From positions 6,510,001-6,574,000 of the forward strand of contig CM120643.1 in the NCBI GenBank assembly GCA_051362555.1: 64,000 bases of DNA, in the 5' to 3' direction. The translations under genes and the position numbers were made by a program. Position 1 is the first letter of the stretch. Every line of letters starts with the position of its first letter. Source of the DNA: Lingula anatina. Its lineage: Eukaryota; Animalia; Brachiopoda. Shown in pieces: positions 3,337-34,871 of this stretch. The notes under the pieces were generated by a model, which saw only the letters and a program-made list of their open reading frames with translations, was not told the origin of the DNA and did not search any database.

Positions 3337-5966
3337 TTATCTGTTGTTAAAATACTGAACATATGCTTCCCTTATGGCTTTGGCATCGTACTGTCTCATG
3401 TCATGTCCTGGTTGGTATCCGTTATGATTTCGATCTTCCTCCACCAAGTCCATCCACTCCTGGTCAAAGCCTTCATTGTGAACCATGACAACATTATGCA
3501 GTGTTAAGCATGCCAGGATGAGCACTGGCACAAATTCAGTTTCAAAATCTAGCCTGTGTTGAAGTATCTGCCATTTCCCTTTACATCTACCCAAACATCC
3601 CTCAATGCACATTCTTCCTCGAGTGTGGCAATAGTTGAAGTTCTTTTGAGCTTGAGTAAGTACATCAAAGTCTGAAAATGCTTTTAACAGCCAAGGTTTG
3701 AGGGGATAGGCAGGGTCACCTATAATCAAAATGGGCACTTCTACTCCATTTATCAGTCGACTTGACGGGGGGAATAAAGTCCCACTTTCTGCCTTTTGAA
3801 AGATGCTTGACTGTGCTAATACTTGTGCATCTTGCACTTGTCCTGGCCAGCCTGATACCACATGCAAGACTCTTAGTTCATGATCACATATCACCTGTAA
3901 CGGAAAGTTGAAAAAATATACAAAATGTGACAAAACTAAAATAATATAATAATAAATGCTGCTTCTAAAATCTAGTGAAAAAAAAAGCCACATATAAATT
4001 AGAGCTGAACTCAACCTCCCAACATTTGAACACACTCCAAGACTATGAAGTTCTAATAACACAACTTAGCACCACCAAAAAGTGTTGTAAAGTAATGAGG
4101 ATATTTTTCATGTGTATTTGTAAGAGGGGTGGGAGTGGAATAGGTTAACTGTACTTATTGGACACCTTTTGGCTATTAAAGAACCAAGGATCCTAGAGAG
4201 AATCATGCACGCTGTATATTTATTCTCCTTTACCTGACTAACAATGGAATAAAAACATTTCTGGTTGTAGTAATCAGTCTTGTTTTGGCTTGGAGCAATA
4301 ATGGGCACGTGTGTTCCATCAATAGCCCCTGCACATTGTGGAACACCCCATTTGGCCTCAAATCCCTCCACAATATTTTGTAGTCTTCTCCCACTGGGCA
4401 TCTGAATGAATTTAGGAGAAAGATGGGTGGCTATGGCCTGCACAGTTTCTTGGAAAATGGTGCAGGCTGAAGACATTCCAATTCCAAACAAATGCGCAAT
4501 GCTTCTGTATTCCATACCAGAGCCACATATCCACAGAGTCACTGCAACCCTGAGTTCTACTGAATAACACCTACAAAAAGCATAAATTTGAGCTGTTATT
4601 GCAAAATATTAATACATAATGGCAATTCCACAGTCTTGGTTATGAATATAAAAATACTTAGCCTTACAATTTTCAATAACGACAGCAATTATCCATAATA
4701 TTTTCCCACATTAGTTGTATTACTGTTAAATGCTACAGACATTTTTATGAATAATCTCCAACTTGGGAATTGCAAAATTTTGTAAACAAAAAATTTGGAA
4801 CTTTATTTTGCACAAATGCAAAATCGGTCATATGTTTTTCATACAACAATAACGTAACATGACTGTATAATTGCATGCTATTTGTCATTAGCATTTAGAT
4901 CAACAAGAAGACACCACAGTAATTTTTTTTTTTTTTTGCAAACATGAGCAATCATATACAGTAAATGCATTCCTCCTCTTTATATTATCCCACAAGAATG
5001 TGCTGCCACTTACTTTCTGTGGGAGTTTTTCTCCAGAAAAGGTCTAAGTTCATGGCAAAGATACTGGAATGTTGTTCTTTTCATACAAAAATTTTCCATC
5101 CAATCTCCATCCGTAAAAGTCCGATTCACAATATGTTCCCACCAGTGGCTTGATCTAAAATGTAAATTTTGAATTTTATGTCAAGAAAAACAAACCCAGT
5201 TTTTACGATACAGACAACACCTTTAGACGTTCCTTCATCGAGGTAAAGAAATTTTAATTACCTATAAAAATATTTTAACTGTGCAAAATAAGACAAAAGT
5301 AAATACTAAATGCGATAATAATGTGCAAAAAATAATAAATGTGAAAAGTATGAAAATCTAAAGTCTGGAAAGTGATCCACCAGGGGTATTGGCATGAAGT
5401 GATTTAAATGTACCTGTGCTAAGATACAGTGGACAGTAGCAGTTATTTAAAATACACCGATTCTAGTTAATTAAAAATCTGGGTCCCGTACCTCGAAAAG
5501 CATCGCGTTTTGCGAATAGCGATATCACACAGGCTACAGTATTCTGGGTCGAGCATGTAATGGGCGAATTATGGAATCGAGACTCAGACGTTTGGTTTCA
5601 CTTTTTTTATTCTAGTTTTTGAAGCAAATTTTATTCGCTCACCAAAACAAATCAAATGACGCATGTCACCTACTTTTCTTTCATCCAAACAGTTCGATCA
5701 AGCGTGGGGAACAAGGCAAACATCAGCATAAGAACGAACTGCGCCCTCTGACGAGACTGTATACGCAAAAATTCTGCCATCCTCCTCCTCCATCTACTGG
5801 GGCTGGGTATCTTCGTGAACATCTCCGTGAATATCTCTGGTGACATTATCTCCGTAGATAGCCGATTCATTGCTACTCTACGGGCCAATTCATTCCTTTT
5901 TCGTCTCTGTTTTGAAAGATAATAGAACAGAAGAGCTTTTTTCCTTCGATCACCTCCAGCCGCCAT
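3337..5966 (-). CDS. PIF/Harbinger DDE transposase (HARBI1-like, DDE_Tnp_4), 4 exons, ~442 aa
   Basis: Exons 5674-5966, 5014-5154, 4234-4570 and 3337-3894 have GT-AG introns and consistent phases (2,2,0), giving an open frame. Motifs: WMENFCMKRTTF, GAIDGTH, GDPAYP, RMCIEGCLGRCKGKW, ACLTLHN. An alternative ATG lies at 5999. Confidence 0.88.
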
Positions 5967-6040
5967 GCTTTCTTCACCTCGAGTTTGTTTGATGAGCATG
6001 CGCACTTAATATTTCTCAGGTAGCTTCCGCATGGCGAATA

Positions 6041-6457
6041 GAGCCGAGATTTAATGACTGTACCCCCGCTGGGACGACGCGTGGGGATTCGTGTCAAAGG
6101 TGGAGAGACTATTAAAAGATTAGGCGGTTTTTCTTTCATGTACGTCCGCCATATTTAGTTCGTGGATTTGTAGAGCTATGGCTCAACTCGTTGACTGCAT
6201 TCTCAACGAATTGAGCCAGGCTTTACAAATCCTAAGAATGAATCGACTATCTACGGAGATAATATCACCAGAGATATTCACGGATATGTTCGGAGCCGAG
6301 ATTTAATTACTGTAGGCTTACTCCTCAGGGACGACGTGTGGGGAGGTGTGTGAGAGGCGGAGAGACTATTAAAAGATTAGGCGGTTTTTCTTTCATGTAC
6401 GTCCGCCATTTTTAGTTCTCAGGATTTGTAAAGCCTGGCTCAATTCGTTGAGAATGC
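6041..6457. repeat. Direct duplication (6041-6193 / 6293-6452) enclosing two inverted templated segments
   Basis: 6197-6238 is the reverse complement of 6416-6457. 6238-6291 is the reverse complement of ~5817-5870 in transposase exon 1. Confidence 0.85.
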
Positions 6458-9990: not shown

Positions 9991-11212
9991 TGTTTTTTTG
10001 TTTCATTTAAATCATCCATATTAGAGTAATTAGAGTATCGTGTTTCTTTCCTTTTTTGATAATAGCTAGTGCCATGAAAGGTAAAAAAAAAAAAGGTATC
10101 CAGACAGTACAGATAGTTGAAGGAGCTTCATGTCAGATCTTTTATATGTTCTTTACCAGTACTTACTCCATTGAAAATGGATTTTGTAAATTATACATGC
10201 CATTTCAAAAATATGTTTATATGAGTTACCACTGAGAAAGGAAAATGCCGTACATAATTGTTACTAAAGTCAGATGAAAATACAACTTTTGATTTCCAGT
10301 TAATGTGAACAGTGATCTTGGTCACTGATCTAAACATGTTTATGACATAATTTTTTCTAATTGAAATGCAATAAAGAACTGTAAAAGACTAGAAATTGTA
10401 TTGTTGTAATAAAAAAATGCAGATACCTTACAGAGAGCAACAGATGGGAATAGATTTTGATTATACTGTATGAAATAAAAAGTCTGATGAAGAGGTGTTA
10501 GGATAGGACTTTATTTATTTATTTATTTATTTATTTTTTGAATGAATGTTTATGTTGATGGTTGATATAACATAATCAGGTATAAAGTATAGAATATATT
10601 TCAGTCTGTTTATTAAATTGTTCAACCAACTGGGTTTTTCATAGGATTTCCATAGCTTGACTACTTTTTTAAAACGAAAGATTGGTTTTATTCAAATTCG
10701 AAATAAACTTAAACAAGCATAATTTGTCATGATTATCCATGAAACTTTTGTCTTCTTTTGCAAACTTGTATTCTAATATCTAAAAACATGAGGGTCAGTA
10801 AAAGAAAAAGAAAATTCAGAAAATACTCACAAGGCAGATTTTATTATCACAAATCATTGAAGTTATTTTTAAAAAATGTCTATTTGAAAGTGAATGAGAT
10901 CATAAATGGCAGTATTTATTAATAAAAAAAGGAGATTCTGATCACATTATTTGCGCTGTTGCAATGTATTAAATAGTAAGGCAGTATGTTTGTCTATAAA
11001 AACACTTCTAATCCATAAAAAATTTAAAAGGACAAAGTTCAATACAAAATATTTTCATGATTTTTAATATTTTTCTTTAAATCATAAACATGGCATAGTT
11101 CTGCAATGGGGATATGAGACCTCCATGAGTCTGTTTGATAAAAGTTCTTGCACTATTTCTGGAATTATATCACTTAGTAAAAGGTTCCACTGGCAACAGA
11201 GCACTGAGTTTT

Positions 11213-12849
11213 TTAAAACTTAACAAGCTGTGTCTTCTCCTGCCTGTGAGCATCCTCTCTAGCCTCATTTGCTGAGAAAAGTATGCAGTGAAGATACACA
11301 CAAACTGCCTTCAGTGTCTGGAACACAAACAAGTCCTCCACCAGTGCCACTCCTACCAGAGCAGCCCAGTTGTACACAGCACTGTCACTCAGCTCTCTGC
11401 CATACACAATGCTGAGATATACTGCCATAGCCATAGAGATGCCCAGCAAAATGAATGCTGGATAGATCAAAAAGTGGGGCAACTTTCCGTCGTGTTTTCT
11501 GTTGACCATCATCTCCAGTGACTTCAGCTCAGTGTATGGCACCTCATCTGATGGTTCTGGAACAGATTGTGTAGAAATGAATTATTTCCAAAAGTATGTG
11601 GAAGTTTAACTACAAACTGAAGAAGGCTAATATTACCTCTGCTTAACACCATAATCACTGTTTTAATTATGATAAGGGCAACGAAGCTTGAAATCAATGC
11701 TCTAAATATCTTCAAAATGTAAGCTGAAGCAGGATAATATGAAAATGCATTATCCTTTTTTTATATATATTCATTCTTTTTAAAAATAATTTACTGAAAT
11801 GACAGACATTGATGATACCAAAATGGACAATTACCTTCCCAAATATTAACTGCTACATCATGTGCATTGTCTTTCCTCTTGCTGTTGTCTAAAATTGCAT
11901 TAAACAAAGGAAATGTAAAGGGAAATATAAAAAGTTATTTGTTTGAGCCATATATTGCTACTGTTGAACATTAATTAGGAAACAGTAAATCAAAATTTTA
12001 GGATGTTACATCTTTTCTACGCTATCAAAAAGGATTAAAAAACATCATCATATAGACATGTCTACAGCATAATATAATGACATACTATTATATATATATA
12101 TATATATATATATGATTACCTGGGATGAGAAAACTTGGGTTGAAGTGAGCAATGAGACTGTAAAAAGATGAAACATCTGCATTTCTGTAGCTGGAAATCT
12201 TCCCAGCATGGGATTTTGGGATTTCTGCCTGCATCTCCTTTTGCATATTTGAGTTTAGCCTAGGGTTGTTAGGAGGAGGAGCATATGTGTAGCTGGGTGT
12301 TTTCTGAAATATTGAAAATCATCCAATAATTGATTCTGCTGACTGGTTAATATAGTCAAAATATTCCACAGATGGGGACATTTGTTCTGGTGGTGGTTTG
12401 ATGTTGCACTATAATACCTCAATATGAGTATAATGTCTTTTTATGTTCTGGTATATACATATGTGCTTATAAGTCAAGCCAAATATATTGTCAAACATTA
12501 CAGAAATGATACAAGTGTCTGTTTTTAATTACAAGAAGGCAATACATGTATGTCTCAAAGGCAATCCATGATATCTGTACAGGCACATACATGCATGCAC
12601 AAACTAAAAATAGAAAAAAAGTAATAAATACCCCTTTCTTGTTGTCCACATCTCCCATGGCAACCATATCTTCCTTGACAACCAAATTTTCCTTGACAAC
12701 CATTTCTTCAATCTGTGCCATAGCCTGGTGTTCAACAGTTGCACGTGCCAAATCATAGTCCTTCTCAAAGTCATAAGCCACCTGTTTCATCATGGTCTCC
12801 ACACTTCCATGCACAACTTGTTGGAACCCATCACTGATTGTGCAACTGC

Positions 12850-12887
<38 letters not shown>

Positions 12888-15827
12888 ATCTTTCTTAAAT
12901 CAAGAAATATAGTGAAAAATTAGTATTATTGGTAAAATAACACTCTGACTATAATTACTAACTCCATTTACACACTCAGAACATGTGTCACATTAGCAAA
13001 AAAATGTGAAATCATTTCAATACTATTAATAGTCTACAAAATGAAACAAGTGTCCAGCCCAATACAAGTTGTCAGAATCAGTCATGGCTGTGAGCAAGAT
13101 CTGTGGTCAACTCCTAAAGTTAAAGACAAATTTAACTTTAGTCCAAAATAACTGTGAAATGAGGAGTCTTAAAATGAACACACAAAATAAACTGCTTCCT
13201 TACATGTCATCATACTGGGGCTCATCTTCCAGGTTCTGCAGCACAGTGTCACCAGTGTCCTCTCTGTCATAGCACCTGATACTGTACATTGCTACATCAT
13301 ATATGCTATTCACAAGGAATGTTCCTATATTGACAAGGAGGCTGGAGAGGAAGATACCTCTATCAAGCTGAATGACACCAACAGCACTGAGAAGGGTACT
13401 GATAAGCAGCATGTTTGCAAACATGTAGTTTAAGGTGCTGTTAAACCACAGAAGGACAGGGGCCAGCTTCAAGCTGGAACAGCGTGTCCATCCATGACAG
13501 GACCACAAATACAGAAGGCAAGTTTGCAGTCCAAACCTGAAAAATATTTTAATAAATTAAAAAATTTATATCAAATATCAAAGTACGGACATTTTACATG
13601 AAAATTACTACGAGTACATTCCATGTTGAAGAAAAACTGAATACTACATTAAAAAATCAGAATATGTATCATTATTATTATTATCTTTCATATTTTATTT
13701 GTTGATAACTTGTAAAAGCAGACATTTCAAAGTACATCATATGCTTATTTATCAATTGTGAGAAAGTCTCCAACTTACCTGGAGTTCTTACAAGACTCCA
13801 AAGTGGTGTATCCCACTGTGAGGCATCCATTGCTGCTGAAGTGGGATTCACAGCCAGATACTGTATCATATACTGTTATATCCAGCACATTCCTTCAATG
13901 AAAGAAAAATAATAATAAAAATTCACTCAAATTTCTTTATACAAAATATGTAAAAATATCTACTATAAATAACATAACAATATGAATATAACTTAAACTA
14001 CAGATGCATCCAAGGTATTCATGACACAAAACATATTTCAGAACAATGACAAAAATAATCTTCATTTGATTTGCAAAACTTTCTTTATACAGGTCCAATA
14101 GTGTAAATATGTTTGTGATGTTCCAGTTTGTATTTTTAAAATTACCATTGAGCTCCTGGTCTATCACTGATGTACACCACAACCTTCTTCAGTTTTCCCA
14201 GGGACTCTGAGTTTAAAATAAAAAAGATTCACTATAATGATTAAATGTTAGTGTGTTGTTTTAGAGTACAACATGCATCAAATATAACAGAGTTGTAGTT
14301 TATTTCTAAAAATAAATTTAGTTAATGCATAACAATACCATAAGAACCCTGTTTTACAAATCACCAATAATTCTTGCACTAACTCTCTCTGAACATGCTC
14401 TGCACTTAACTTTATGATAAAAAGTCAACATAACTGAGTTAACATGATACTTTAAGTAATAGTAATCATATATAATATAGCCACTGACTGAGATGAACAG
14501 CAAACTGTGACCTGATGTTCCATTTAAGACTGTACATGCTGAATATTGAATGTAATAAAGTAAATGGCAGTTAGCTGCTAATAATACTGTTGAATCAATA
14601 TTTGCAAGAAAAGAAATTTATATGTGCGCCAAAATATTCAAGATACTCACCTTTTGTATACAAAAGAAACCATTTCTTCTGTCCTACCCCAAGGAAATTG
14701 TGCTTCCTCCCATGTTCATTCAGATTATATTCAGGAGATATCCCCTGGTCTCCTATCAACTGCAATCTGACTTTGGGTGTCTTTACTGCTACAAAACAAC
14801 ATATTTCTATAGTTTGGAATAAATTCAGTTAAATAACAACTTCAACAATTATATACAACTGTAAGACTCTTCATTGGCCTATATCTCTATTTATATTTTT
14901 GTCATTTCAGTATTAAAATATATTAAAATATATTATTATTATTCACACAATAATAACTAGTTTAAGCTTTTCAACAAGGATCAGAATCAATAACTTGAAA
15001 GATCTTAGCATCACTTTTACCTCTTTTCAGCCCATTTTGAACTGCTACCATGTTTCTATAGTGATGTTCACCAGAATATTTGGGAACAACTATGATACCA
15101 CTTTGCTTTCTCTGAAATGATAATGACCACTATAATTATAAGGCAAAGGAAAAGAAAGGAAAGGAAAGAAATGTAAAAATAAAACAATAATGTTTTGAAA
15201 CTGATTACAGCAGAAACTGTTTTTATACTTTCATGCAGACTAAATTTAAAATGTAAGTGCAACACAAAATTTTGTTTCACTCTCAGTACCTTCTTCCAAT
15301 TGAACCAAATGATATAACTCGTGCTGAGTAACATAATGCCCAAAAACGCAAAGATGAATGCAAATGTGAGATTCTGGTACAGCATGAACTTTTGTGGAGC
15401 TTTTTTCAAGGCAAAAGCTAGCAAAGAAAAGAAAGGATGTAGCTTAAAAATGGAAAGCAAGGAAGCAACCAAGGGCAAAGAGAAGTATAGGAAGCACGAT
15501 TCATTTAAATGAATATAAAAAAATAGAGAAAGTAGGGTCTAATGAATTAGTCTCAAACAATACAAAACAATAACACAAAGTAAGATGCTGAATGCATGGA
15601 ACTTTGACAAACCAAATTAAAAAAAAAAAAAACATCACAATTTGTGCTAAATGAATGGTGAAAAAACATTGGTTCCCCGTGAGTTGTTTTAATGTATATC
15701 GCCTGCTTTGTAAACAAAAAAGGTGCAAAAGAGTTACATAAGCCTATAGTTTGATGATATACTTACCTCCATGGAGAGGTTGCATGAGTAGCAACATCAA
15801 CAAAACTTTGATCTTCAAGTTCTTCAT
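11213..15827 (-). CDS. Truncated polycystin-1 (PKD1-family)-like membrane protein: signal peptide, short stalk, TM1, PLAT/LH2, TM2-3, loop, TM4-5; 10 exons, ~555 aa
   Basis: Exons 15767-15827, 15290-15417, 15021-15111, 14651-14788, 14146-14206, 13779-13892, 13204-13536, 12632-12845, 12120-12303 and 11213-11556 are all GT-AG and phase-consistent (1668 nt). PLAT-like segment: VAVQNGLKRAVKTPKVRLQLIGDQGIS...SLGKLKKVVV...QWNVLDITVYD. PKD1-like TM4-5: LPHFLIYPAF...VYGRELS...W...FVFQTLK. Confidence 0.8.
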
Positions 15828-15972
15828 ACTGGCAATTTTTTATATGTTCTCCCTGTATCAAATAATATGAAGCCGTGTACAACAAACACGTATATTTAAA
15901 AATGAAGTCGCGATTACGCGAATAAACGAGAAATTATCGATATTTCAAACAATTTGGACGGAGTTGACTTTG

Positions 15973-16662
15973 ACTTCCGCCCAAATCTCACAAATGTCTG
16001 TTGCTAATTGACGTCACAGACACAATCAGCTCACGTGACCATTGTGCTGGGATGTGCGGTTGTGATGTTAAAACAGCCAAATCGATAAAACAATAATAGT
16101 TATAAATAACATTCACCTTGAAGACTCACTGTACAGCCTGATTGGGGCTTTAATAAATTACTTTGAAGAGGATACGTATGGTTTATGTTATTTGTCGTAT
16201 TTGTTTGAATATATGTACATATAGTTCTACTTAAAGGGACAAAAAATAGGATTAAAAACGCCTTTTTAGTGCATGGATTGCTTCTTTTTTAACTTATCTG
16301 AGAACAATTGCTATGGGTAAAGCATAAAATGGCAGGTAAATGGCCTTAATCAATATCGAAAAAAAGAATCATATTCACCGTCCACTTTCGAACCCCGGGC
16401 GTCAGCCATCTTGACACAGTTTGAAATAACGCGGCTTCTCGACTCAGATACGAGATGTAAACAATGCAGACAGCATGTCGTTTCGAAGGTGAGCGTGGAC
16501 GTGAAGGAGAAGAGGAATTGCTCACCGAATCTTTGCAGGTAAGCGAGTTATATTTACCAAAAGTACTATAAAATGGGAAGATGGCAGTGGAAATCAAAAT
16601 GTCTGGCAGAGGAAGTTAAAAAGCGTAGATAACTGCTAATAATTAACGTTTCCTCGGGTAAC
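15973..16662. promoter_or_regulatory. CpG-containing, probably bidirectional promoter region
   Basis: ETS ACTTCCG at 15973, CRE TGACGTCA at 16009-16016, E-box TCACGTGA at 16031-16038, and an RFX X-box-like GTTTCCTCGGGTAAC at 16648-16662. It lies upstream of the polycystin-like gene, and plus-strand donors (cag|gtaagc at 16538) follow. Confidence 0.5.
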
Positions 16663-16986
16663 GCACTCGCAGCCAAATCACTCGCACTGGGTACGTACTA
16701 CTATAGTTATATGAAGCGAGATAGTGCACTTTACCCCTGAGGTGTATAGGTCTGTAAAGCAGAAGGAATACCCTTTTCTGCTTAATGTGGTCATCTACCA
16801 GTACTTACAGACTAACCTCACACCATATTCTCGCAGGGGAATCCCATGAGATATACGATGTAACTCGAGTACTAGTGGGGATAGAGGGTGTTCTTTGTAC
16901 GGCACGTAACTACGTTAGCTTATTTGTAAATTTAATAATATTGTCAATGAATATGATTATAAGGAATGATTTTTTTAGCCTTTCAG

Positions 16987-17034
16987 AGGAGGAATTTGTT
17001 GATACACCCCTTCAAGCACGAGTGAAGAGATCAG
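16987..17034 (+). other. Isolated 48-nt phase-1 micro-exon candidate (EEEFVDTPLQARVKRS)
   Basis: tttcag acceptor, gtatgt donor, and open in one frame only. No convincing partner exons were found. Confidence 0.3.
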
Positions 17035-17060
17035 GTATGTTAATAATTTTAGCAGTATAA

Positions 17061-17265
17061 CATGGGCAGATCCAGGATTATTTGAAAGGGGGGGGGGGGG
17101 GGGGGGTCCGCGGATGCAAAGGCGACCCCCCCCCCCCCCCCCTAGTTGGCGTGGGGTCCTGGGCCTGCTTAAAACTTTGGTATTTTAGAGGGTGAACAGT
17201 GCAATTTGGTACGGTTTAGCACTTTACTGTAGTAAATTAGCTAGTCAAAATTCTAATTCCAAGTG
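17061..17265. mobile_element. GC-rich MITE, same family as 9780-9990
   Basis: gggcagatccaggattatttgaa terminus, polyG/polyC tracts and a shared internal sequence. Confidence 0.6.
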
Positions 17266-17541
17266 GGGAATATTAGTGTGATTTTTTTACATCAGTTCTT
17301 TGAAACCATGTGTGATTATGTTATTTCTTCTTGTGGCCTTTATGATTTAATGCAGCTGCAGATATTTAAATTTAATTTTTTTTTTTTTTGCCATAATCAG
17401 ACTTGCTTCTTTATAATAAGCTGGTTATCATGTAGTGATCATGCCCTCTAATTTGTTGATTTTTGTTAAAGAATAGTGCTGTTATGATAATATCAATACA
17501 TTTTTTTCTTTATAACCATTTTATGTAATTTTACTATTACA

Positions 17542-17810
17542 GTGCCTCAAGTTATGTCTGGAAAACTCATACCAGGAAGCACTCCAATCTTACAATACTG
17601 CATCACTTCAATCTCGGTGTGACAAGTTGTGTAAAAGACTGCTACAAAAAATTTGCAGCGATGACCACATGATCCACCACCTTTTACCAAAACCGAGTGA
17701 ACAGTTTTATATTATAATGCCCATGTACATGTATTTAAAGTGACAAGACTGAGATCAGCGAGAGCCTCAAGGCCTTTATTTTCTGTGCATTGTCAACTCT
17801 TCAATAATTT
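17542..17810 (+). mobile_element. Degenerate 3' fragment of an L2-group (Daphne/Crack-like) LINE
   Basis: Reads SYQEALQSYNTASLQSRCDKLCKRLLQKICSDDHMIHHLLP, matching the SY.EAL...L..RR..LC...H.LH.LLP ORF2 tail. Confidence 0.55.
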
Positions 17811-19267
17811 TATAATTTTGTCAAATACATCCAAAGATTCAATTCTAATGCAATACTTGAAAACTTTTTTAGAATATATTTTAATGTCGAACATGTTTTT
17901 CTAAGAACTAGCCCTTTAGTAAATTAACATGTACTATCCAACTGTTAATATTAATTAACATATTGTTATGTACAAAGCATAAGCTGCAGTATCAATGAAG
18001 CATTAACTGGGTAGAGATTATGAATGAAATAAAAGTTTAAATATTGAAACATCTTTTATTTATATTTGGCAAAAATACAAGAATAAACAAAGTTTGCTAC
18101 ATAAGTTTTGGAATTTGGCCAAATCATCTTTATTATTACCTGTCACATGTAATGAATAAGACATACACAGATTCTGTAAGCTAGAATGCATAATTATTTT
18201 CATACTCATTAATGCCATCTTCATAAATAAGCCTTCTATTCAAGCATTCACAAACTTTCACATTGTGCAGTACACATTATAGTATGATAACATTTTTGAG
18301 AGAGACTTATTAATAGCCAGGCTATCATGTTAAGAGTCTGATGTACATGCAGACCCATGAGGATTGCAGATCAACAAATTATCCCCCTCTCTGTCAGTGT
18401 ATTGACTCATGTGAGCTGTCTCCATGCAAAGGGATGTGTCATAAGAAAGGACCAACCCAACTTACACAAACATAAATTGTTTCATCAGTAAGATATTCAC
18501 ACATACTTTTCCAAGATGTGCAGGGAATAAATAGAAAGGTATAAATATTTCTTTAAAAAATACAGGCATAGCTTCCCTGCATGAATTCTAAATAATGGCT
18601 GAGTGGAGAATTGAATACAGGCACAAGTGTTCACTCAAACCATTTTTGTAGGTCTTAAAAGAAATGACATGCAGTCATTTGCCAAATACAGAATTTTATG
18701 CTGTAACAAAGTCACAAAACTGCAACTGGTGATCTTACAAAATCTAACAACACACTGGTTTAAAATCAAGTTGAAATCACAATATGCCACCAGTACCATA
18801 TTCCATAATACATTTGATGTCATTTAGATTTAAGAAGTAAATGCTGGACCAAAATGGTTTATTCTCAATATCAGGCATATGACTTAGGTTTGGGAGGAAA
18901 GACCACCTTGATTTCCAATCTGTCTGCATTATAGCATACATGTAAGTGCTAGATGGTTTGAAGTCAGCAGATTATGCTTTGTCACATTGGCAAGATGAGT
19001 TCACTGAATATATCCTGTAAGCAGCACTCGAAAGTCAGGAAAAGTCTCTCACTATCCAACTCGTCCCCGCTTTGGACCCTCAAGAAAAGTTCATCTTTTT
19101 TTGGTGGAGAGCCATGGAGTTCCTCTTCCATGTAAAAAACTCTTCTTCAGGGCATCATACTGGCAGTTGCTCATAACCTTTAGGTCTAAAAAAGCAAATC
19201 AAAATAATAATAATAATAATTAATTAAGATTGCAACCCAGTGGGTTGAAGTTGTACATAGTGTTAAG

Positions 19268-22200
19268 TGTAATATCTTCACAACTGACTTTATTACTGAA
19301 CCATGTGCTTCTGTCTTACATGCTCACTAGAGGGCGCACGTCATGACAAGCCCAAACTAATATACTACATTCCTTCCCCCTTTGTAAGTGACACTTTTAT
19401 AGATTCCCAAATGAACTGATATGTTAAACACTAAAAATAGAACACCGTTAAAAAAATTCCACAACACCAGTAGTAAAATAACTGAAAAGAAAAAATGAAC
19501 ATAAACAGTTATGAACAAGTCTTTTAGGTCATGCAACAGTCTTCTTTTTTAAGACAGTGTAATTAATAGTCACAGTCTGTCTTGAGTTCTTTGCTGCTTT
19601 GAATATTTACACATCAACAATAACTTTTGGTTTTCTATTTCTCACTGGGTACCTGCTTTCAAAATTGCTAATTTTTACAGATTCGTCACCTGTAGTGACT
19701 TGGGTTTTCCCAGGAGATGCTGAAATTTCCACATTAATATTTTCCTCTACATTTATGTCACCAGTGTCAGTGACCTGACTGGTAGGCACTGGTGTGTCTG
19801 ACACATGTCTGGTTGTCATACCAAAATTCTCATTAATTACAGGCATCTCCACCATTGGAGATGAAAATACCTTTGAAAAACAATACTGGTCAAATGCAGG
19901 TATTATTTGGTCAACATGCACATGCTTTAGTCCTTTCTCAGTTTGTACTAAGTATCTCCTTGGGCCCAAAACTTTAATCACCGATCCAGTCAACCATTTA
20001 TCCAACTTGCTGCCCGTCATGTCCCTGACACGTACACGGTCGTGACACTGAAAACAACGTTCTGGTGCTTTATCATGATGTCGTTTCTGTTGCATTTGTT
20101 TCTCCTCTACAACATCAGCCAAATTGGGTTTAAGTAGGCTGAAACGTGTGCGAATCTGTCGCTTAAGAAAAAGTTCTGCAGGAGTTTTTCCTGTGGTAGT
20201 GTGAGGAGTGGATCTATAACGCATCAAAAAATTTGCTAATCTACGCTTTAATGACATATTTTTGTACTTCACATCATGCAAGTGTTTTTCCAATGCTCGT
20301 TTCACATTTTTCACTGAATTTTCCGCAGCCCCATTCGACTGGGGGTGGTAAGGTGGAACCAAGGTTTGTTTGATGCCATTTGTTTTCAGAAACTCCCGGA
20401 ATTTATCTGAACTGAACTGAGGTCCATTATCAGATACAACTTCCTCAGGTAGTCCATATGATGCAATCAGTATTCTAAGTTCATCGATGGTGTGTTCGGC
20501 ATCTGTATTAGACATTGGTATCACCTCGAGCCACTTGGAATGTGCATCATGCACTAAAAGGAATGTTTTCCCTTCCTTAAAAAAGAAATCCAAATGAATA
20601 CGGCTCCATGGCCTAACTGGCCACTTCCAAGGGTATAATGGTGACGCTGGTGGCATGTTGCGCACAGACTGACATGCGCTGCATTCTCTCACCTTACATT
20701 CAATATCACTGTTTAAATTTGGCCACCAAACATAACTCCTTGCTATTGCTTTCATAGCGCACACTCCAGGGTGCTCCCAGTGCAAATCCTCTAGCAGTGT
20801 TTGACGGTAGATCTCTGGTATCACAACACGGTTTCCCCACAAGATACACCCTTGCTCTGCTGAAAGCTCATGTCTCCTGACATGATATGGTTTGAGTATC
20901 TCTGAATCTAGATACTCTGGCCAACCACTCATCGTATAATCCATGACTTTGCTTAATACAGAATCTTTCCGAGTGGCCTCAGCTATGTCACTAGCAGTAA
21001 GTGGTAGCTCTGTAGCTACTTCACATACATATATTGTGCAATCACTGCCAATTGATGACACCTCATGTGGTAAACGCGACAAACAATCTGCATTGCTGTG
21101 TAGTTCTGACTTGCGATACTGGATGTCATAGTCATATGCTGACAGAATAATAGCCCACCGTTGCATTCTTGCTGCTGCGAGTGTAGGCACTCCTGTCTTT
21201 GGGCCCAGTATGGTAAGGAGTGGTTTGTGATCAGTCACTAGAGTCCATTTTCTTCCATACAGATACTGATGAAATTTTGTAACACCGAATATTATGCTTA
21301 GTGCTTCCTTTTCAATCTGAGCATAGTTGCGTTCACTTTTGCTCAGAGTTCGTGATGCAAATGCTATTGGTTTCTCTGAACCATCATCCATGATGTGACT
21401 AATGACTGCCCCCACTCCATATGCCGAGGCATCACAGTCTAGTTTTATTTTGCGTTGAGAATCATAGTGTGTAAGCACTCTGTCACTGCTTAACTCACAT
21501 TTGCATGCATCAAATGCCTTTTGACATTCCTCAGTCCATTTCCAATTGACATTCTTCTGCCTTAGTCTGTTTAATGGTGCAAGTGTGGTAGACATGTCTT
21601 TGAAAAATGCACCATAGTAGTTTACAAGTCCAATAAATGACTCGAGCTCCTGTACATTCTTGGGCACGGGTGCATCTCGAATAGCCTTGACTTTCTCCTC
21701 TGTAGGATGAAGTCCAGCTTTGTCCACCATATGTCCCAGATATTCAACTTTAGGCTCCAGAAAGCGACACTTCACTCTCTTAGCCTTTACTCCATATTCC
21801 TTCAATCGCTGTAACACTTTTTCAACCTTTTTGATATCTTCTTCATGTTTACCATCTTCCTCTATGCCCTTGATCAAAACATCATCTTGTGAACAAATAA
21901 CGCCATCAAAATCTTTCAACATTTGATCCATTACACACTGAAAGATCATAGGTGCACTTTTGACTCCATAAGCTAAGCGCTTGAACTTATACAACCCCTT
22001 GTGTGTGTTCACAACAAGATACTTTTGACTTTCTTCATCGAGCTCCAACTGGGCATAGGCACTAGACAGATCGATCTTTGTGAAAACAGTTCCCCCTGCC
22101 AACGTTGAGAACAGATCCTTGGCCGTGGGAAGTGGATACTGTTCTTGTGATACAGCCTGATTCACAGTTACTTTATAGTCACCACAAATTCTCACTGACC

Positions 22201-23724
22201 CATCACTTTTGGGTACAACCACTATGGGAGCTGCCCACTCACTGTGATCTACTTTTTCTATAATGCCACTTTGCTCTAGTCTATTCAACTCTGCTTCTAT
22301 TGCTGGTTTTAATGCGTAAGGCACAGGCCTGGCCTTACAGAACACAGGTGATGCATCTTCTTTGACTCTGATATGAGCTTTGAACTCCTTAATTTTCCCA
22401 TATCCCTCTGAGAACAAATTTTCATATTTGTTCATAAGCTCCTCTCCTACATTTGGCCCCAGAGGCTGTGATATGGCGAATATCTCCTTCCAATTTAATT
22501 TCAATTTTTGTAGCCATCCATATCCAAGTAGAGGCGGCTTACCACTGCCCTTTGCTACTATAAGTGGCAGTTGGAGATTTTGCCCTTCATGAACAACATT
22601 CACGGTGATTTTCCCTATCAGCGGGATGGTCTCCCCATTGTAGGCTCTTAGCCTTACATCTGCTGAACCCAGTTTCTTATGACTGAAATGTTTCTTGTAT
22701 GTGTCCTCAGTTATCACTGAAACCTCAGCTGCGGTATCGATTTGCATTTGTATTATTTGTCCATCGATTGCTATGGGTACGAAGACCCCTTTCCTATTGC
22801 TGTTGTTCTTTAATGAATAAATGTGTAAAATGTCAGAGTGGTTTTCTAAGGTATCTTCGATGACCTCATTTACTGTTTTCCCTCTTTCCCAACACACCTT
22901 AGCAATGTGTCCTACCTTAGAACATACAAAACATTTCTCATCTTTAAATCTGCAGTCATTTGGAGAGTGATTTCCTGTACATCGCCAGCATTTGTTTACA
23001 CTTTTGTTTTTCCTTACCGCTGGTCGGTTGCTCTCTTTTGAATTGCTAGTAGTTACTTTATGCACATTGGCTGGCTCTGCTATTGGCGGTCTGAATTGCT
23101 GAGAATGGCAGTGTGCCAATTCCATGGCCATGGCAACGTCAAATGCCATTTCAAGTGTAAGATCCTTGGTTGCTAATAATTTCTTTTGTGTCCCTTCATG
23201 AAGCAGACCACAAACAAATCTGTCACGCAACGCCTGATTCAAAAAGTCTCCATACTCACAATGTGTTGACAATCGTCTCAGTTCTGATAGATATTCACTA
23301 ACCTTCTCACCTTCAAGTTGGTTTCTTTTCATGAACTTGAATCGCTCAGCAATTACCAAAGGCTTTGGAGCGTAATAATTCTGTAAATGGCCCTTCAGCT
23401 GGTCATAACTCAGCGTGCTGGGTAACTCCGGCGAAGTTAAACTTTTTAGCTTTGCATACGCTGTACTGCCAATAACTGTTAGTAACACTGCAGCTTTCTT
23501 GTCATTTTCTATGTCATTGACTAAAAAATATTGCTCTAACCTCTCTATGTAGCACTCAACATTTTCTTTACTATCGTCAAATTCATTTAGACGGCCAATC
23601 CTCGCCATCCTCGTCGCCAGAATGTAATATCTTCACAACTGACTTTATTACTGAACCATGTGCTTCTGTCTTACATGCTCACTAGAGGGCGCACGTCATG
23701 ACAAGCCCAAACTAATATACTACA
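19268..23724 (-). mobile_element. Full-length Ty3/Gypsy LTR retrotransposon, Mag-clade type
   Basis: Identical 102-bp TG..CA LTRs at 19268-19369 and 23623-23724. 5-bp TSD TTAAG at 19263-19267 and 23725-23729. PPT at 19370-19383. PBS TGGCGACGAGGATGG at 23605-23619. Confidence 0.97.
19607..23608 (-). CDS. Single Gag-Pol polyprotein (two zinc knuckles, protease, RT, RNase H, integrase), 1333 aa
   Basis: Knuckles CWRCTGNHSPNDC and CFVCSKVGHIAKVC; protease IDTAA; RT RICGDYK and SQDD; RNase H CDASAYG and EKEAL; integrase HHCC with HLDF, SDNG and AENS. Confidence 0.97.
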   Translation of the reverse strand: MARIGRLNEFDDSKENVECYIERLEQYFLVNDIENDKKAAVLLTVIGSTAYAKLKSLTSPELPSTLSYDQLKGHLQNYYAPKPLVIAERFKFMKRNQLEGEKVSEYLSELRRLSTHCEYGDFLNQALRDRFVCGLLHEGTQKKLLATKDLTLEMAFDVAMAMELAHCHSQQFRPPIAEPANVHKVTTSNSKESNRPAVRKNKSVNKCWRCTGNHSPNDCRFKDEKCFVCSKVGHIAKVCWERGKTVNEVIEDTLENHSDILHIYSLKNNSNRKGVFVPIAIDGQIIQMQIDTAAEVSVITEDTYKKHFSHKKLGSADVRLRAYNGETIPLIGKITVNVVHEGQNLQLPLIVAKGSGKPPLLGYGWLQKLKLNWKEIFAISQPLGPNVGEELMNKYENLFSEGYGKIKEFKAHIRVKEDASPVFCKARPVPYALKPAIEAELNRLEQSGIIEKVDHSEWAAPIVVVPKSDGSVRICGDYKVTVNQAVSQEQYPLPTAKDLFSTLAGGTVFTKIDLSSAYAQLELDEESQKYLVVNTHKGLYKFKRLAYGVKSAPMIFQCVMDQMLKDFDGVICSQDDVLIKGIEEDGKHEEDIKKVEKVLQRLKEYGVKAKRVKCRFLEPKVEYLGHMVDKAGLHPTEEKVKAIRDAPVPKNVQELESFIGLVNYYGAFFKDMSTTLAPLNRLRQKNVNWKWTEECQKAFDACKCELSSDRVLTHYDSQRKIKLDCDASAYGVGAVISHIMDDGSEKPIAFASRTLSKSERNYAQIEKEALSIIFGVTKFHQYLYGRKWTLVTDHKPLLTILGPKTGVPTLAAARMQRWAIILSAYDYDIQYRKSELHSNADCLSRLPHEVSSIGSDCTIYVCEVATELPLTASDIAEATRKDSVLSKVMDYTMSGWPEYLDSEILKPYHVRRHELSAEQGCILWGNRVVIPEIYRQTLLEDLHWEHPGVCAMKAIARSYVWWPNLNSDIECKVRECSACQSVRNMPPASPLYPWKWPVRPWSRIHLDFFFKEGKTFLLVHDAHSKWLEVIPMSNTDAEHTIDELRILIASYGLPEEVVSDNGPQFSSDKFREFLKTNGIKQTLVPPYHPQSNGAAENSVKNVKRALEKHLHDVKYKNMSLKRRLANFLMRYRSTPHTTTGKTPAELFLKRQIRTRFSLLKPNLADVVEEKQMQQKRHHDKAPERCFQCHDRVRVRDMTGSKLDKWLTGSVIKVLGPRRYLVQTEKGLKHVHVDQIIPAFDQYCFSKVFSSPMVEMPVINENFGMTTRHVSDTPVPTSQVTDTGDINVEENINVEISASPGKTQVTTGDESVKISNFESRYPVRNRKPKVIVDV

Positions 23725-23854
23725 TTAAGAAAATTATAATGAAAATAAAGTGAATATTTGCTTGAATAAAACTGAGTTAAAAGACTGCTAATTGAACTTT
23801 AAAATTATTGTACTTAGGATAAAAGACAACATAATACTATTGGAAATTTAAAAG

Positions 23855-31563: not shown

Positions 31564-34500
31564 TATGGAAAAAAAAATAATAATAAGTAAATAAATAAAC
31601 ACAAATAGAGTATATATATATATGTTCCTTTCATACACGCACACATACCCACGTACGCACAACACTCATACTTGGTCACTGCTAATATGTATATTATCCT
31701 TGCATTACACAGTTGTGTTTACAAAAATAGACTAATTAGTTGTCTGTCCATTTCACTCAAATATAGTAACTTCATCTCTAAGTGCCTGCTGATTAACAAA
31801 ACAAAATTAAATAAAATATAATAGAAAACTTAAACCCAAAAGATAAAGAAAGGGATGCTACTGCTATTCCCCTTCAACAAAAAGTGGTAACCATTGTGCC
31901 CATTGTTTAACAAAGTTGTCATATGTGCAAGATCCATGACGCAAAGCAATATTTTTTTCAACATGATACATAAATTTTATGTAACCCAAAAGACCTTGAA
32001 AGCTTGGGGTCTTTTTTTGTTTCAGGCACTTGTAAATATATAGTTTTCCAAACATAATAAGTAAATTAAAAATTTTACTTTCCGTTGTGCATTTTATTCC
32101 AAACAAGATTTTATAGTCATCGAGATCCAAATTGACATTAGTTTTTTCGAGTATATGGTCTTGAAACTTATTCCAAAGAGGACGCACACTATTACACTGT
32201 ATAAACACATGAAGGAGATCTTCACGGTCTCTTTTACAAAAGCCACATATGTCATTATCCTGAATGCCAATCTTTTTCAAATAAGCACCCAAAGGGAGTA
32301 TCCTATGTATTATTCTAAACTGAAGCCATTGTAACGTTGTATCTCGAGAAGTTCCAAAACAAGTCTCAAAAATTTCTTCCGTTTTTAAGCGAGCGTCCCC
32401 GTTATTGAATAGTTTTTGGTTCCATGTACAGACACCAGTGGGAATAATATTTTTCTTATTTAGGACATTATATACATATCTGTTTCCTTTTTCATTTAGC
32501 ATAAGCCCCTTGAAATGAAACGGGTAGTAAGGGGTGACTGTAATAGCCACCTTTTCCTTATCAAATTGTCTTAGAAAAACCTTAACTGCACTGTACATGC
32601 TATTAAACTGCATAGTTTGGACTCTCAAATTGAATTTTTGTTCAAGCACATTCTTTTTCATTAAATTTCCCTGATTGTCCAACATATCTCCAAGAACTTT
32701 TATTCCTTGTTTGTACCAGGAAGGGATAAACACCGAAGCGTTGTTAATCTTAATTTCAGTATTATACCAAAGAGGTATTGCGCCTGGGTCACTTGCCCAT
32801 TCCCTTAACATTTGGACTTTCATAAAGTAAGCCCAAGCTATCAGAGTATCCTGCCAAAATTTGTTTTGGATACGTTCTGCTAACTTCCTGACATAATCAT
32901 CACCAAAGTCGAGCAGGTTCTGGATTAACTTTTTTCCTAATATGGATTCTAATATATTAGTCCAAATCTGTTTCCTAGAAATTAGTCTTTTCAACCAAGA
33001 ACATTTTAATGATGTAATAAAACATTTTATGTCAATCATTTTAAGGCCACCAGCGTTGTGATTTTGAGAGGCTACGTCCCTTTTAATTCTATCACATTTT
33101 GACCCCCATACAAAATTATAAAACTCAGTCTCAAGCGATTTAATAAATCCGTTGTTTGGGTTGGGTAGGGAGATAAATAGATGGGTAAGTTTGGAAATTA
33201 ATAACGATTTTACAATCGTGGTTTTACCTATTGGGCTAAGGATGCGTTTTTTCCATTGTTTAATCTGACTTTGTACTTTTGTCATTTGCTTTTGATAATT
33301 CAGATCAATCATGTCACTTAACTCTACTGAAAAAGTTATGCCTAACAGCTCAAATATTTGTACCCCCCAATAAAGTTTCCATCTGGAATGATGGTACACA
33401 TCTTTACTATATTTTTTGGAACCTATCCATATTACTTTAGTTTTTGAGGCATTGATGTGTAGTCCAGATAATTTTGCAAAGTATTCAAGGGTTTCCAGGG
33501 AATTGAATAAAGATTCTTTCGATCCATCTAATGTAAGTGAAGTGTCATCTGCATATTGTAAAATCTTATTCTCGATTCCATTAATTGTTATTCCTTTTAT
33601 AGATGTGTTGCTCTTTATCAGTATTGACAGCATTTCAGCACTCAATATAAATAAATAAGGGGCTACTGGGTCACCTTGTCGACAACCTCTTTGGATAGAA
33701 AACGGTTTCGACAGGAAACCACATTGTAGAACGGATGCTGTAATGTTAGTGTTTAGTATGTTTACCCATGTTATTAGATTTCTGCCAAAGCCGAAGATGT
33801 TAAGAGCTTTATAGATGAAGGACCAAGCTAAGGAATCAAAAGCTTTTTCGAAGTCAATCAACATTAGAAGGCCAGGAATCTGTCTATTCTCAGTATAGTC
33901 CATCAGATCATATATTGCTCGTATGTTATCACCCAAGTATCTACCGGGTATGAAACCCGACTGCGATGGAGGTATGAGAGAATTCAGAGTGCGTTTTATT
34001 CGTCCACAGATACATCCAGAAATAATCTTATAAAATACATTCAGGAGTGTAATCGGCCTCCAGTTTTTCATGTCTTTTCTTGATTTTTCTCCTTTTGGGA
34101 GACATACAATGATTCCGAGTCTTTGTGAGATAGGCAACATTTTTTTAAAAAAAATATCATTTATAGCTCTTCTGATAAAGTACTTGAGATCATTCCAAAA
34201 AAATTTGTAGAACTCGGCTGAAAAGCCATCACTTCCTGGGGACTTGTTATTCTTCATTGATTTAATAACACTTAGGATTTCAGTTAATGTAAATTCTTGA
34301 TCTAATTCGTGAGCAGTAACATTGTCCAATTTATTAAAGGAATACGGTTCTAGTACATTACTGAGGTCTACGTCATCTATTTCATTTTCTTTGCTTGAAT
34401 ACAAATTTTCATAGAAAAGCTTCACCTCCTTAAGGATTTCTGACTGTTCGTAGACTGTTCCTTTTCCATCTATATCTAGCACCTGAATAGTTTTATTCAG

Positions 34501-34871
34501 AAAGTTTCTGGACTCTAAACCACAAAAATATTGCGTCGGTTTCTCCCCCTCGTCAACCCATTGTGCGCGTGATCTTATCATGCTTCCCCGTAGTTTCTCT
34601 TTCCTTAATGTTTCTAGTGATTGTATTTTTTCTTCCAAGATGCCATTATGTACTAAATTTCCTGCGTCATTGTCATCTTTAAGTTTTTGTATCTCATCAA
34701 TAAGTTCCTTTTCCTTCTTATTCTTATCTTTTTTCTTAGCACTAGCATGTGATATAGTTACCCCCCTTATTTCCATTAGTAGTACTTCCAAAAATAGGCT
34801 ATCGGATATGGATAATTGCAGGTCTTCTTCTGGAATACAATCAATTATGGATACTTTATACAAGATATTGG
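31512..34871 (-). mobile_element. 5'-truncated L1/Tx1-clade LINE with poly(A) tail and TSD
   Basis: ~50-nt polyT at 31512-31561, TSD CAAAAATCTTTT at 31504-31515 and 34872-34883, and a 3' UTR at ~31562-31863. Confidence 0.93.
31864..34863 (-). CDS. L1/Tx1 ORF2 fragment (RT and C-terminal zinc finger; endonuclease missing)
   Basis: KSPGSDG, WRPITLLN, DFEKAFD, RGCRQGDP, QYADD and CGFC..EDLLHVFIQC. The frame is open for 999 codons but lacks an authentic ATG. Confidence 0.92.
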   Translation of the reverse strand: MYKVSIIDCIPEEDLQLSISDSLFLEVLLMEIRGVTISHASAKKKDKNKKEKELIDEIQKLKDDNDAGNLVHNGILEEKIQSLETLRKEKLRGSMIRSRAQWVDEGEKPTQYFCGLESRNFLNKTIQVLDIDGKGTVYEQSEILKEVKLFYENLYSSKENEIDDVDLSNVLEPYSFNKLDNVTAHELDQEFTLTEILSVIKSMKNNKSPGSDGFSAEFYKFFWNDLKYFIRRAINDIFFKKMLPISQRLGIIVCLPKGEKSRKDMKNWRPITLLNVFYKIISGCICGRIKRTLNSLIPPSQSGFIPGRYLGDNIRAIYDLMDYTENRQIPGLLMLIDFEKAFDSLAWSFIYKALNIFGFGRNLITWVNILNTNITASVLQCGFLSKPFSIQRGCRQGDPVAPYLFILSAEMLSILIKSNTSIKGITINGIENKILQYADDTSLTLDGSKESLFNSLETLEYFAKLSGLHINASKTKVIWIGSKKYSKDVYHHSRWKLYWGVQIFELLGITFSVELSDMIDLNYQKQMTKVQSQIKQWKKRILSPIGKTTIVKSLLISKLTHLFISLPNPNNGFIKSLETEFYNFVWGSKCDRIKRDVASQNHNAGGLKMIDIKCFITSLKCSWLKRLISRKQIWTNILESILGKKLIQNLLDFGDDYVRKLAERIQNKFWQDTLIAWAYFMKVQMLREWASDPGAIPLWYNTEIKINNASVFIPSWYKQGIKVLGDMLDNQGNLMKKNVLEQKFNLRVQTMQFNSMYSAVKVFLRQFDKEKVAITVTPYYPFHFKGLMLNEKGNRYVYNVLNKKNIIPTGVCTWNQKLFNNGDARLKTEEIFETCFGTSRDTTLQWLQFRIIHRILPLGAYLKKIGIQDNDICGFCKRDREDLLHVFIQCNSVRPLWNKFQDHILEKTNVNLDLDDYKILFGIKCTTESKIFNLLIMFGKLYIYKCLKQKKTPSFQGLLGYIKFMYHVEKNIALRHGSCTYDNFVKQWAQWLPLFVEGE

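What the first reader, a model, noticed from the sequence alone, without database searches (positions are those of the whole stretch)
11213..15827. Mini-polycystin: signal peptide fused almost directly to TM1-PLAT-TM2-5, with no GAIN/REJ ectodomain and no channel domain
Seen in the sequence: a phase-consistent 10-exon model reads MKNLKIKVLLMLLLMQPLHGAFA-LKKAPQKFMLYQN-TM1-KKRKQ-PLAT-TM2/3-loop-TM4/5-short tail-stop. Minus-strand AATAAA signals follow at ~10916 and ~10839, and I saw no channel-like exons further downstream. Established: PKD1-family proteins have a large ectodomain with GAIN/GPS, 11 TMs, PLAT after TM1, and a TOP plus 6-TM TRP-like module with a coiled coil for PKD2. Inference: this gene encodes only the N-terminal 5-TM+PLAT module. 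It could be a stand-alone lipid-sensing or scaffolding unit, a decoy regulator of polycystin complexes, or one half of a split polycystin.
Basis: partly seen in the sequence, partly recalled or inferred. Interest (0 to 1): 0.85.

Follow-up and report, generated by a model that had tools for sequence, protein, structure and literature searches.

The report
Channel-less polycystin-1 core in Lingula
This brachiopod gene encodes only the middle part of a polycystin-1-type protein (a PLAT domain and four or five membrane helices), with neither the large outer sensor nor the ion-channel half; it is one of a multi-copy family and likely acts as a membrane scaffold, so it could serve as a natural test of what that poorly understood part does.

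Summary
Largely real, with corrections. The gene has 11 exons (not 10) and encodes 573 aa. The best solved-structure match of its family is human polycystin-1 (PLAT, then TM4/5). No channel or GAIN exon is in the window, and RNA coverage ends just before the polyA signals. All close relatives found are uncharacterised Lingula anatina proteins: seven copies at 89-97% identity and five at about 28%. All 8 of these 12 that reach TM5 stop 17-31 residues later, so loss of the channel is an old family trait. The headline signal-peptide/TM1 fusion is unproven. Exon 2 (TM1) looks like a real exon (0.7-7.5% by chance) but had no reads, and the two longest RefSeq copies splice exon 1 to exon 3, giving PLAT plus four helices. 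Reads come mostly from other copies, depth is low, their changes look neutral (5 of 21 codons silent), the PLAT is degenerate and some copies are broken. Best reading: a channel-less, lipid-docking membrane scaffold in a fast-turnover family; decoy and split-gene ideas lack support. Channel-less PKD1 relatives are known in sea urchin but keep the REJ ectodomain. The scan noted a different channel-less type (GPS-bearing, no PLAT) in another genome.

The parts
15828..16125 (-). 5' UTR and promoter-proximal region; head-to-head with a + strand transcript
   Evidence: Sense reads in bins 15738-16125; opposite-strand spliced transcript from about 16200. The start site itself was not mapped.
15767..15827 (-). 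Exon 1 coding part. The first ATG opens a signal-peptide-like frame; a second ATG at 15772 in another frame starts the 512-aa ORF if exon 2 is skipped
   Evidence: P0009 and P0013 begin with the exon 1-exon 3 junction sequence. Signal peptide judged by pattern and hydropathy only.
15290..15417 (-). Exon 2: AxA cleavage-like motif, 13-residue stalk, TM1, basic stop-transfer; likely a cassette or vestigial exon
   Evidence: Chance 0.7% (TM plus 2 K/R) to 7.5% (TM only) in 3000 shuffles; mid-range splice scores; zero reads; no similarity to other TM1s beyond composition
15021..15111 (-). Exon 3: juxtamembrane linker and start of PLAT; in-frame ATG at 15051
   Evidence: exon 3/4 joint in reads of 3 runs; P0014 starts at this Met
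14651..14788 (-). Exon 4: PLAT
14146..14206 (-). Exon 5: PLAT
   Evidence: depth about 1.7
13779..13892 (-). Exon 6: end of PLAT
   Evidence: depth about 1.2
13204..13536 (-). Exon 7: linker, TM2 and TM3
12632..12845 (-). Exon 8: cytosolic loop, predicted helical, partly alignable to the long paralogs
   Evidence: loose ends run on into exon-9 sequence
12120..12303 (-). Exon 9: cytosolic loop; 34 residues shorter than in P0009, P0010 and P0013
11835..11888 (-). Exon 10: short loop exon
   Evidence: exon 10/11 joint in reads; present in P0008 and P0011
11213..11556 (-). Exon 11 coding part: TM4, TM5, short tail, stop
   Evidence: 34-37% identical to the C-terminal end of P0001, P0002 and P0003; family profile aligns to the polycystin-1 TM4/5 region
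10840..11212 (-). 3' UTR with AATAAA at 10920 and 10845
   Evidence: depth continues past the stop into bin 10888-11081 and is zero below 10888

Best explanation
The gene encodes the PLAT domain and membrane helices TM2-5 of a polycystin-1-type protein with no GAIN/REJ ectodomain and no channel half, and it likely works as a stand-alone membrane scaffold whose cytosolic PLAT would dock on inner-leaflet lipids and trafficking adaptors. Shown: gene structure, homology, the stop after TM5 shared with distant Lingula paralogs, and low transcription of the family. Inferred: (1) the usual product skips exon 2 and is a four-helix protein with both ends in the cytosol, because dropping signal peptide plus TM1 leaves PLAT inside and TM2-5 in the same orientation; exon 2 is an optional or vestigial exon that would add them back; (2) it conducts no ions and senses no outside ligand; (3) PLAT binds anionic lipid and adaptors as reported for polycystin-1, with the 200-residue loop as a binding platform; (4) the family arose from a PKD1-like ancestor by loss of the channel half, then of the ectodomain, and now turns over by duplication and loss, so any one copy, this one included, may be dispensable.
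For: Family profile A1: best 3 of 11 PDB matches are polycystin-1 (E 5e-10), PLAT then TM4/5 in order; P0001 alone gives the same order. ESM Atlas first hit for P0009 is a PLAT-only PKD1L2-named cluster, 0.92, 212 of 256 features. The N-terminal 120 residues of the P0009 model match PLAT folds (Z 9.7, rmsd 3.5, 111 aligned). 8 of 8 Lingula relatives that reach TM5 stop 17-31 residues after the TM5 motif, against 591 for fish PKD1L2; 3 of these 8 are only about 28% identical overall. No channel, GAIN or ectodomain hit among 2,074 window ORFs (best E 0.18). Reads end at the polyA signals. Skipping: zero exon-2 depth while exons 1, 3 and 4 are covered; P0009 and P0013 start at the exon 1-3 junction; distant P0001 and P0015 also begin just before PLAT without TM1. 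PLAT binding to phosphatidylserine, PI4P and beta-arrestin: PMC9672506 passage.
Against: No functional data. Pfam PLAT scores only 21.3 and 19.6 bits for P0009 and P0013 (cut-off 23) against 42-63 for the long paralogs, and the clade sits on a long branch (1.53), so lipid binding may be lost. Read-versus-window changes are 5 silent of 21 changed codons, against 22-28% expected if neutral. In the skipped transcript three upstream ATGs open an overlapping 34-aa frame, which should lower translation. 5 of 7 close RefSeq models are partial, one ending in a shifted frame. Reads cannot be assigned to this copy: at several sites all reads differ from the window (for example 15054, 10 of 10). Exons 5 and 6 also have depth of only 1.2-1.7, at which zero reads on exon 2 has probability 0.08-0.17. 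Both AlphaFold models are poor overall (pLDDT 37).
Confidence: 0.5

Rival explanations
1. The young clade, or this copy, is a decaying set of duplicates: derived from a functional channel-less PKD1-like gene, still weakly transcribed, but under little constraint and making little or no protein.
For: Neutral-like ratio of read variants; degenerate PLAT; partial and frame-shifted copies; overlapping upstream ORF; depth of 1-5 per run in about 6% of each run; Harbinger-type transposase, Gypsy and LINE elements nearby; the Lingula genome is reported to duplicate genes fast (PMC4595640 passage).
Against: Eleven exons keep frame and canonical sites. The clade has diverged 1.5 changes per site from the long paralogs yet keeps PLAT, four helices and the same end, which needs long-term selection. 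Indels between the window model and the two 577-aa copies keep frame (RefSeq models are biased towards this). 21 codons from mixed alleles and paralogs is a small sample that overstates amino-acid change.
Confidence: 0.25
2. One reading: signal peptide, a 13-residue stalk, TM1, PLAT, TM2-5, a genetically pre-cleaved and channel-less version of the polycystin-1 C-terminal fragment.
For: First ATG has A at -3 and gives 573 aa only with exon 2. The AxA motif is formed across the exon 1/2 junction. Exon 2 is unlikely by chance and sits where P0003 and P0016 have TM1.
Against: No reads on exon 2; 0 of 7 close RefSeq models include it; one X2 read fits exon 1 to exon 3 by depth arithmetic only (47+91+13 nt); no positional similarity to other TM1s (shuffle P 0.07-0.74). 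The stalk-dependent signalling described for polycystin-1 needs the TOP domain (PMC9672506 passage), which is absent. The chance criteria were chosen after seeing the exon.
Confidence: 0.17
3. It is one half of a split polycystin, or a decoy that binds full-length PKD1/PKD2 complexes.
For: The protein corresponds to one structural half (TM1-TM5), and the other half works alone with PKD2L1 (PMC8357825 passages), so separate halves are physically possible.
Against: No partner gene in the window; the parts that build the channel are the ones missing. The genome was not available, so a partner elsewhere is untested.
Confidence: 0.08

Closest known systems
Polycystin-1 family N-terminal membrane domain (TM1-TM5 plus PLAT) of PKD1, PKD1L1-3, PKDREJ; PDB 6A70, 8Z6B
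   Same: PLAT followed by TM2/3, a long loop and TM4/5, in the same order; best solved-structure match of the family profile; alignable to fish PKD1L2
   Different: No REJ, GAIN/GPS, TOP, six-helix TRP fold or long C-tail; PLAT degenerate; TM1 on an exon that appears to be skipped
Longer Lingula anatina paralogs LOC106163543 (P0003), LOC106179356 (P0016), LOC106172920 (P0001), LOC106179582 (P0015), LOC106175318 (P0002)
   Same: About 28% identical; PLAT, TM2/3 and TM4/5; the three that reach TM5 stop 17-22 residues later; no Pfam GPS or channel hit
   Different: P0003 and P0016 have about 300 residues before TM1 with no Pfam match; the loop is about 1,000 residues in P0001 and P0003 against about 200 here; stronger PLAT. 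All are named 'uncharacterized'.
Sea urchin SpREJ proteins with fewer than 11 helices (SpREJ1, 2, 7, 8, 9, 10)
   Same: PKD1-family proteins without the channel half, with cDNA ends determined (PMC1934368 passages)
   Different: They keep a REJ domain and are 1,450-3,580 aa; this one has lost the ectodomain and keeps the membrane core
Pygsuia biforma 346-aa transcript product (P0005)
   Same: Four hydrophobic segments, weak match to TM4/5 (E 1e-3), ends 23 residues after the TM5 motif
   Different: No PLAT; a single borderline hit from a protist; relationship unproven

Membership tests
PKD1 (polycystin-1) family | PLAT domain directly after TM1 | tested here: met
   Family profile and fold matches; Pfam PLAT on P0009 E 4.5e-4, just under the cut-off. 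Single window exons gave no PLAT hit. TM1 itself depends on exon 2.
PKD1 (polycystin-1) family | TM2-TM5 homologous to the PKD1 N-terminal membrane domain | tested here: met
   TM4/5 aligns to polycystin-1 as a weak second domain in the right order and to PKD1L2 (E 0.08); TM2/3 by alignment with PKD1L2; Atlas structure rows span residues 4-562 against PKD1L-named models at TM 0.46-0.48. Each piece is weak alone.
PKD1 (polycystin-1) family | GAIN/GPS domain before TM1 | tested here: not met
   At most 13 residues between the signal peptide and TM1; no hit with the PKD1L2 GAIN region in the window; no Pfam GPS in P0003, P0009, P0013 or P0016
PKD1 (polycystin-1) family | REJ or other large ectodomain | tested here: not met
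   Sense reads start near 16.1 kb, with an opposite-strand transcript and the 3' end of another gene directly upstream; no ectodomain hits
PKD1 (polycystin-1) family | TOP domain and six-helix TRP-like half (11 helices in all) | tested here: not met
   Stop 31 residues after the TM5 motif; same in 8 of 8 Lingula relatives that reach TM5; reads run through the stop into the 3' UTR
PKD1 (polycystin-1) family | Assembly with PKD2-type subunits | not tested
   No Lingula PKD2 sequence was fetched; the parts that form the channel are absent
PLAT/LH2 lipid-binding domains | Beta-sandwich PLAT fold | tested here: met
   Model strands at 20-117; top Foldseek and VIA matches are lipase and lipoxygenase PLAT domains; model is of sister copy P0009, pLDDT about 50-76 there
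PLAT/LH2 lipid-binding domains | Binding of Ca2+ or anionic lipid | not testable with these tools
   Needs a binding assay
Secreted-pathway protein with cleaved signal peptide | Signal peptide in frame with the membrane domain in the expressed mRNA | tested here: inconclusive
   In frame only with exon 2; exon 2 has no reads but depth is low; no signal-peptide predictor was available

The most novel reading that the evidence does not exclude
Lingula has turned the TM1-5/PLAT half of polycystin-1 into an autonomous, expanded protein family with neither GAIN nor channel, and one cassette exon switches this gene between a five-helix form with its own signal peptide (a genetically pre-cleaved mini-polycystin) and a four-helix form with both ends inside the cell. 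That would show the half has a function of its own and give a natural minimal version to study.
Probability: 0.3. Interest if true: 0.75.

Novelty: new variant of a known kind. Interest (0 to 1): 0.5.

Why it matters
The C-terminal TRP-fold half of PKD1 or PKD1L3 is enough for channel activity with PKD2-type subunits (PMC8357825 passages), which leaves the job of TM1-5 plus PLAT open. A natural family that kept only this half through deep divergence suggests it does something alone and offers a 500-570-aa protein for localisation, lipid-binding and structure work. Surveys that find PKD1-like genes through the channel domain (as in PMC11448475 passages) would miss it. The interest is tempered: it was found only in Lingula, expression is low, this copy may be dispensable, and channel-less PKD1 relatives already exist in print.

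Tried and rejected
No whole genome was held, so genomic exon 2 in other copies, true copy number and a channel-only partner gene could not be searched. No indexed RNA holder was listed; 6 of the 9 same-species runs were laid. Pfam on 8 single exons gave only two sub-threshold irrelevant hits. phmmer of P0009 alone against the PDB found nothing. Single-sequence AlphaFold of P0009 was unusable; the 11-row model is usable only for PLAT, and no polycystin appears among the rows shown, so the helical part is untested by fold. I first noted that exon 2 has the weakest splice sites; that was a training artefact, and leave-one-out scores are mid-range, so the chance test was redone. The binomial figures used 5 silent of 23 bases; one doubly changed codon holds a further silent base, so 6 of 23 is the fairer count, still within the neutral range; 6 of the 29 variant rows lay outside the coding sequence and were dropped. 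The Atlas search with the P0003 ectodomain gave only noise-level hits (0.80; one cluster has GPS in 53% of members, a lead only). PLAT-only PKD1L clusters in the Atlas (chordates, rotifers) may be gene-model fragments and were not counted as relatives. P0004 (bacterial-type repeat protein) and the LOXHD1 hits P0017 and P0018 were set aside. Both trees leave the root and order of losses open. The bacterial promoter scan does not apply. No complex was predicted. Paper searches listed no description of this family; the Lingula genome paper has no 'polycystin' or 'PKD' in its text or in the one supplement held. The library lacks most subscription journals. Earlier-findings look-ups by place and by sequence were empty.
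Full report
Gene model. Hydropathy shows a signal-like stretch at 4-24, one helix at about 31-60, two at 235-277 and two at 485-553. AATAAA starts at 10920 and 10845.

Relatives. Exon 11 searched against 1.84 billion representatives gave 5 hits at E <= 0.001: three Lingula anatina proteins, one bacterial-type repeat protein (set aside) and one Pygsuia protein. The word-indexed search gave 3 clusters of 194 candidates, holding 7 L. anatina RefSeq loci on contigs of 7 different lengths, 89-97% identical to the model over aligned residues. The window is therefore Lingula anatina or a very close relative (inference); none of the 7 is identical to it, and some may be uncollapsed alleles (heterozygosity 1.6%, scaffold N50 294 kb; PMC4595640 passage). 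A search with P0009 added nothing (3 of 5,599 candidates). A search with P0001 residues 1-260 gave 6 of 487: P0001 itself, two more Lingula paralogs, two LOXHD1-type proteins and a fish PKD1L2. No relative with this layout was found in another animal, but these searches are insensitive at this distance.

What it is. A profile of 10 Lingula proteins matches human polycystin-1 best among solved structures (E 5e-10; 3 of 11 hits), through PLAT and then weakly through TM4/5, ahead of lipoxygenases. The Atlas puts P0009 nearest PKD1L-named clusters by features (0.92) and by structure (TM 0.46-0.48 over residues 4-562). My own model of P0009 is poor overall, but its first 120 residues form a PLAT sandwich. 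The PLAT is degenerate: 21.3 bits in Pfam against 42-63 for the long paralogs.

The missing halves. All 8 of the 12 Lingula relatives that reach TM5 stop 17-31 residues after the TM5 motif, including 3 at about 28% identity; fish PKD1L2 continues for 591. The other 4 end earlier or are partial. The PKD1L2 channel half, its GAIN region and the ectodomains of P0003 and P0016 find nothing among 2,074 six-frame ORFs of the window (best E 0.18), and tblastn agrees. Reads cross the stop into the 3' UTR and end by 10888. Upstream, sense reads begin near 16.1 kb; beyond lie a + strand spliced transcript and the 3' end of another minus-strand transcript at about 18.0-19.5 kb. Only 11 kb downstream is in the window and no genome was held, but the conserved ends make a missed channel unlikely. 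P0003 and P0016 carry about 300 residues before TM1 with no Pfam match, so the family had an ectodomain without a recognisable GAIN; the window's clade has lost that too (order of events inferred; the trees do not fix the root).

The signal peptide and TM1. This is the weak point. For exon 2: it is in phase, lies where TM1 belongs, completes an AxA motif with exon 1, has ordinary splice scores, and such a segment arose in 0.7% (with two basic residues) to 7.5% (helix only) of 3,000 shuffles of the 655-nt interval (criteria chosen after the fact). Against: zero sense depth in 6 runs, of which 3 are informative, while the other ten exons have summed depth 1.2-9.6. The chance of zero is 0.08-0.17 at the depth of exons 5-6 and 0.001 or less at the depth of exons 3-4. 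None of the 7 close RefSeq models has it. The two longest begin with the sequence made by joining the ATG at 15772 in exon 1 to exon 3. Distant P0001 and P0015 also start just before PLAT. Exon 2 resembles other TM1s no more than its shuffles do. Skipping gives 512 aa and, by polycystin topology (PLAT in the first intracellular loop, PMC9672506 passage), keeps PLAT inside and TM2-5 unchanged; but it leaves three upstream ATGs in an overlapping 34-aa frame. I read exon 2 as a real but usually skipped, or decaying, exon.

Expression and constraint. Depth is 1-5 per run in about 6% of each run; joints were listed for 2 of 10 introns, with loose ends supporting a third. Those loose ends carry the exon-9 insertion of P0009, P0010 and P0013, and most coding variants match residues of other copies, so the reads show that the family is transcribed, not that this copy is. 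Of 21 changed codons 5 are silent, as expected under neutrality (22-28%); the sample is small and mixes alleles with paralogs. Three close models start inside exon 7, one is internal and one ends in the shifted frame of exon 8. This fits birth-and-death turnover; long-term retention of frame and layout across 1.5 changes per site argues that the lineage was under selection.

Mechanism. Without an ectodomain, TOP or pore it should neither sense outside ligands nor conduct (inference from architecture). The C-terminal half of PKD1L3 alone forms working channels with PKD2L1 (PMC8357825 passages), so the part kept here is the part not needed for that. What remains is a helix bundle, a PLAT that in polycystin-1 binds phosphatidylserine, PI4P and beta-arrestin and controls trafficking (PMC9672506 passage citing Xu et al. 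2016, which I did not read), and a cytosolic loop. I commit to a lipid-docking membrane scaffold (0.5), against decay (0.25), the five-helix form as main product (0.17) and split or decoy (0.08).

Known or new. It fails three defining PKD1 features (GAIN, REJ, channel half) and meets two, so it is PKD1-derived and not a canonical member. Sea urchin SpREJ proteins with 0-6 helices show that channel-less relatives exist, but they keep REJ (PMC1934368 passages). Planarian and abalone surveys describe PKD1-like proteins with channel or 11 helices (passages); passages of PMC4890752 and PMC12799467 added nothing specific. Nine paper searches listed no account of this family. Verdict: new variant of a known kind, interest 0.5.

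Noticed in passing
window 16200-18000 (+): Spliced, well-expressed transcript head-to-head with the gene (joints 16536-16977 and 17031-17540, depth up to 137). No long ORF at 80 aa; reads differ from the window at many sites, so probably another multi-copy unit or a non-coding RNA.
   Followed up: partly
window 18050-19190 (-): 3' end of another minus-strand transcript (depth up to 26). Its last exon has no single open frame through it in the window and lies next to a Gypsy LTR; possibly a broken copy.
   Followed up: partly
window 19268-23726 (-): Ty3/Gypsy-type element with one 1,341-aa gag-pol ORF and two identical 104-bp terminal repeats, so a recent insertion.
   Followed up: partly
window 3337-6457: Harbinger/PIF-type DDE transposase in two or more ORF pieces, with short inverted repeats at 5817-6457.
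   Followed up: no
window 31864-34881 (-): LINE-type reverse transcriptase ORF of 1,005 aa.
   Followed up: no
window 38965-39676 and 42698-44291: Two arrays of a roughly 146-bp tandem repeat, about 92% alike between arrays.
   Followed up: no
window 46487-47350 (+): C2H2 zinc-finger array ORF.
   Followed up: no
window 54785-56944 (-): 719-aa uninterrupted ORF with no Pfam match; its start looks like a mitochondrial targeting sequence by eye.
   Followed up: no
P0003 residues 28-320 and P0016 residues 30-330: Ectodomain of the long paralogs has a twice-repeated amphipathic segment and a basic furin-like site (motif recalled, read by eye); no Pfam or clear Atlas match. Could be a replacement for GAIN cleavage.
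   Followed up: partly
P0005 (Pygsuia biforma): 346-aa protein marked complete, with four hydrophobic segments resembling TM2-5 and no PLAT or channel; hints that the four-helix module may also stand alone in a protist.
   Followed up: partly
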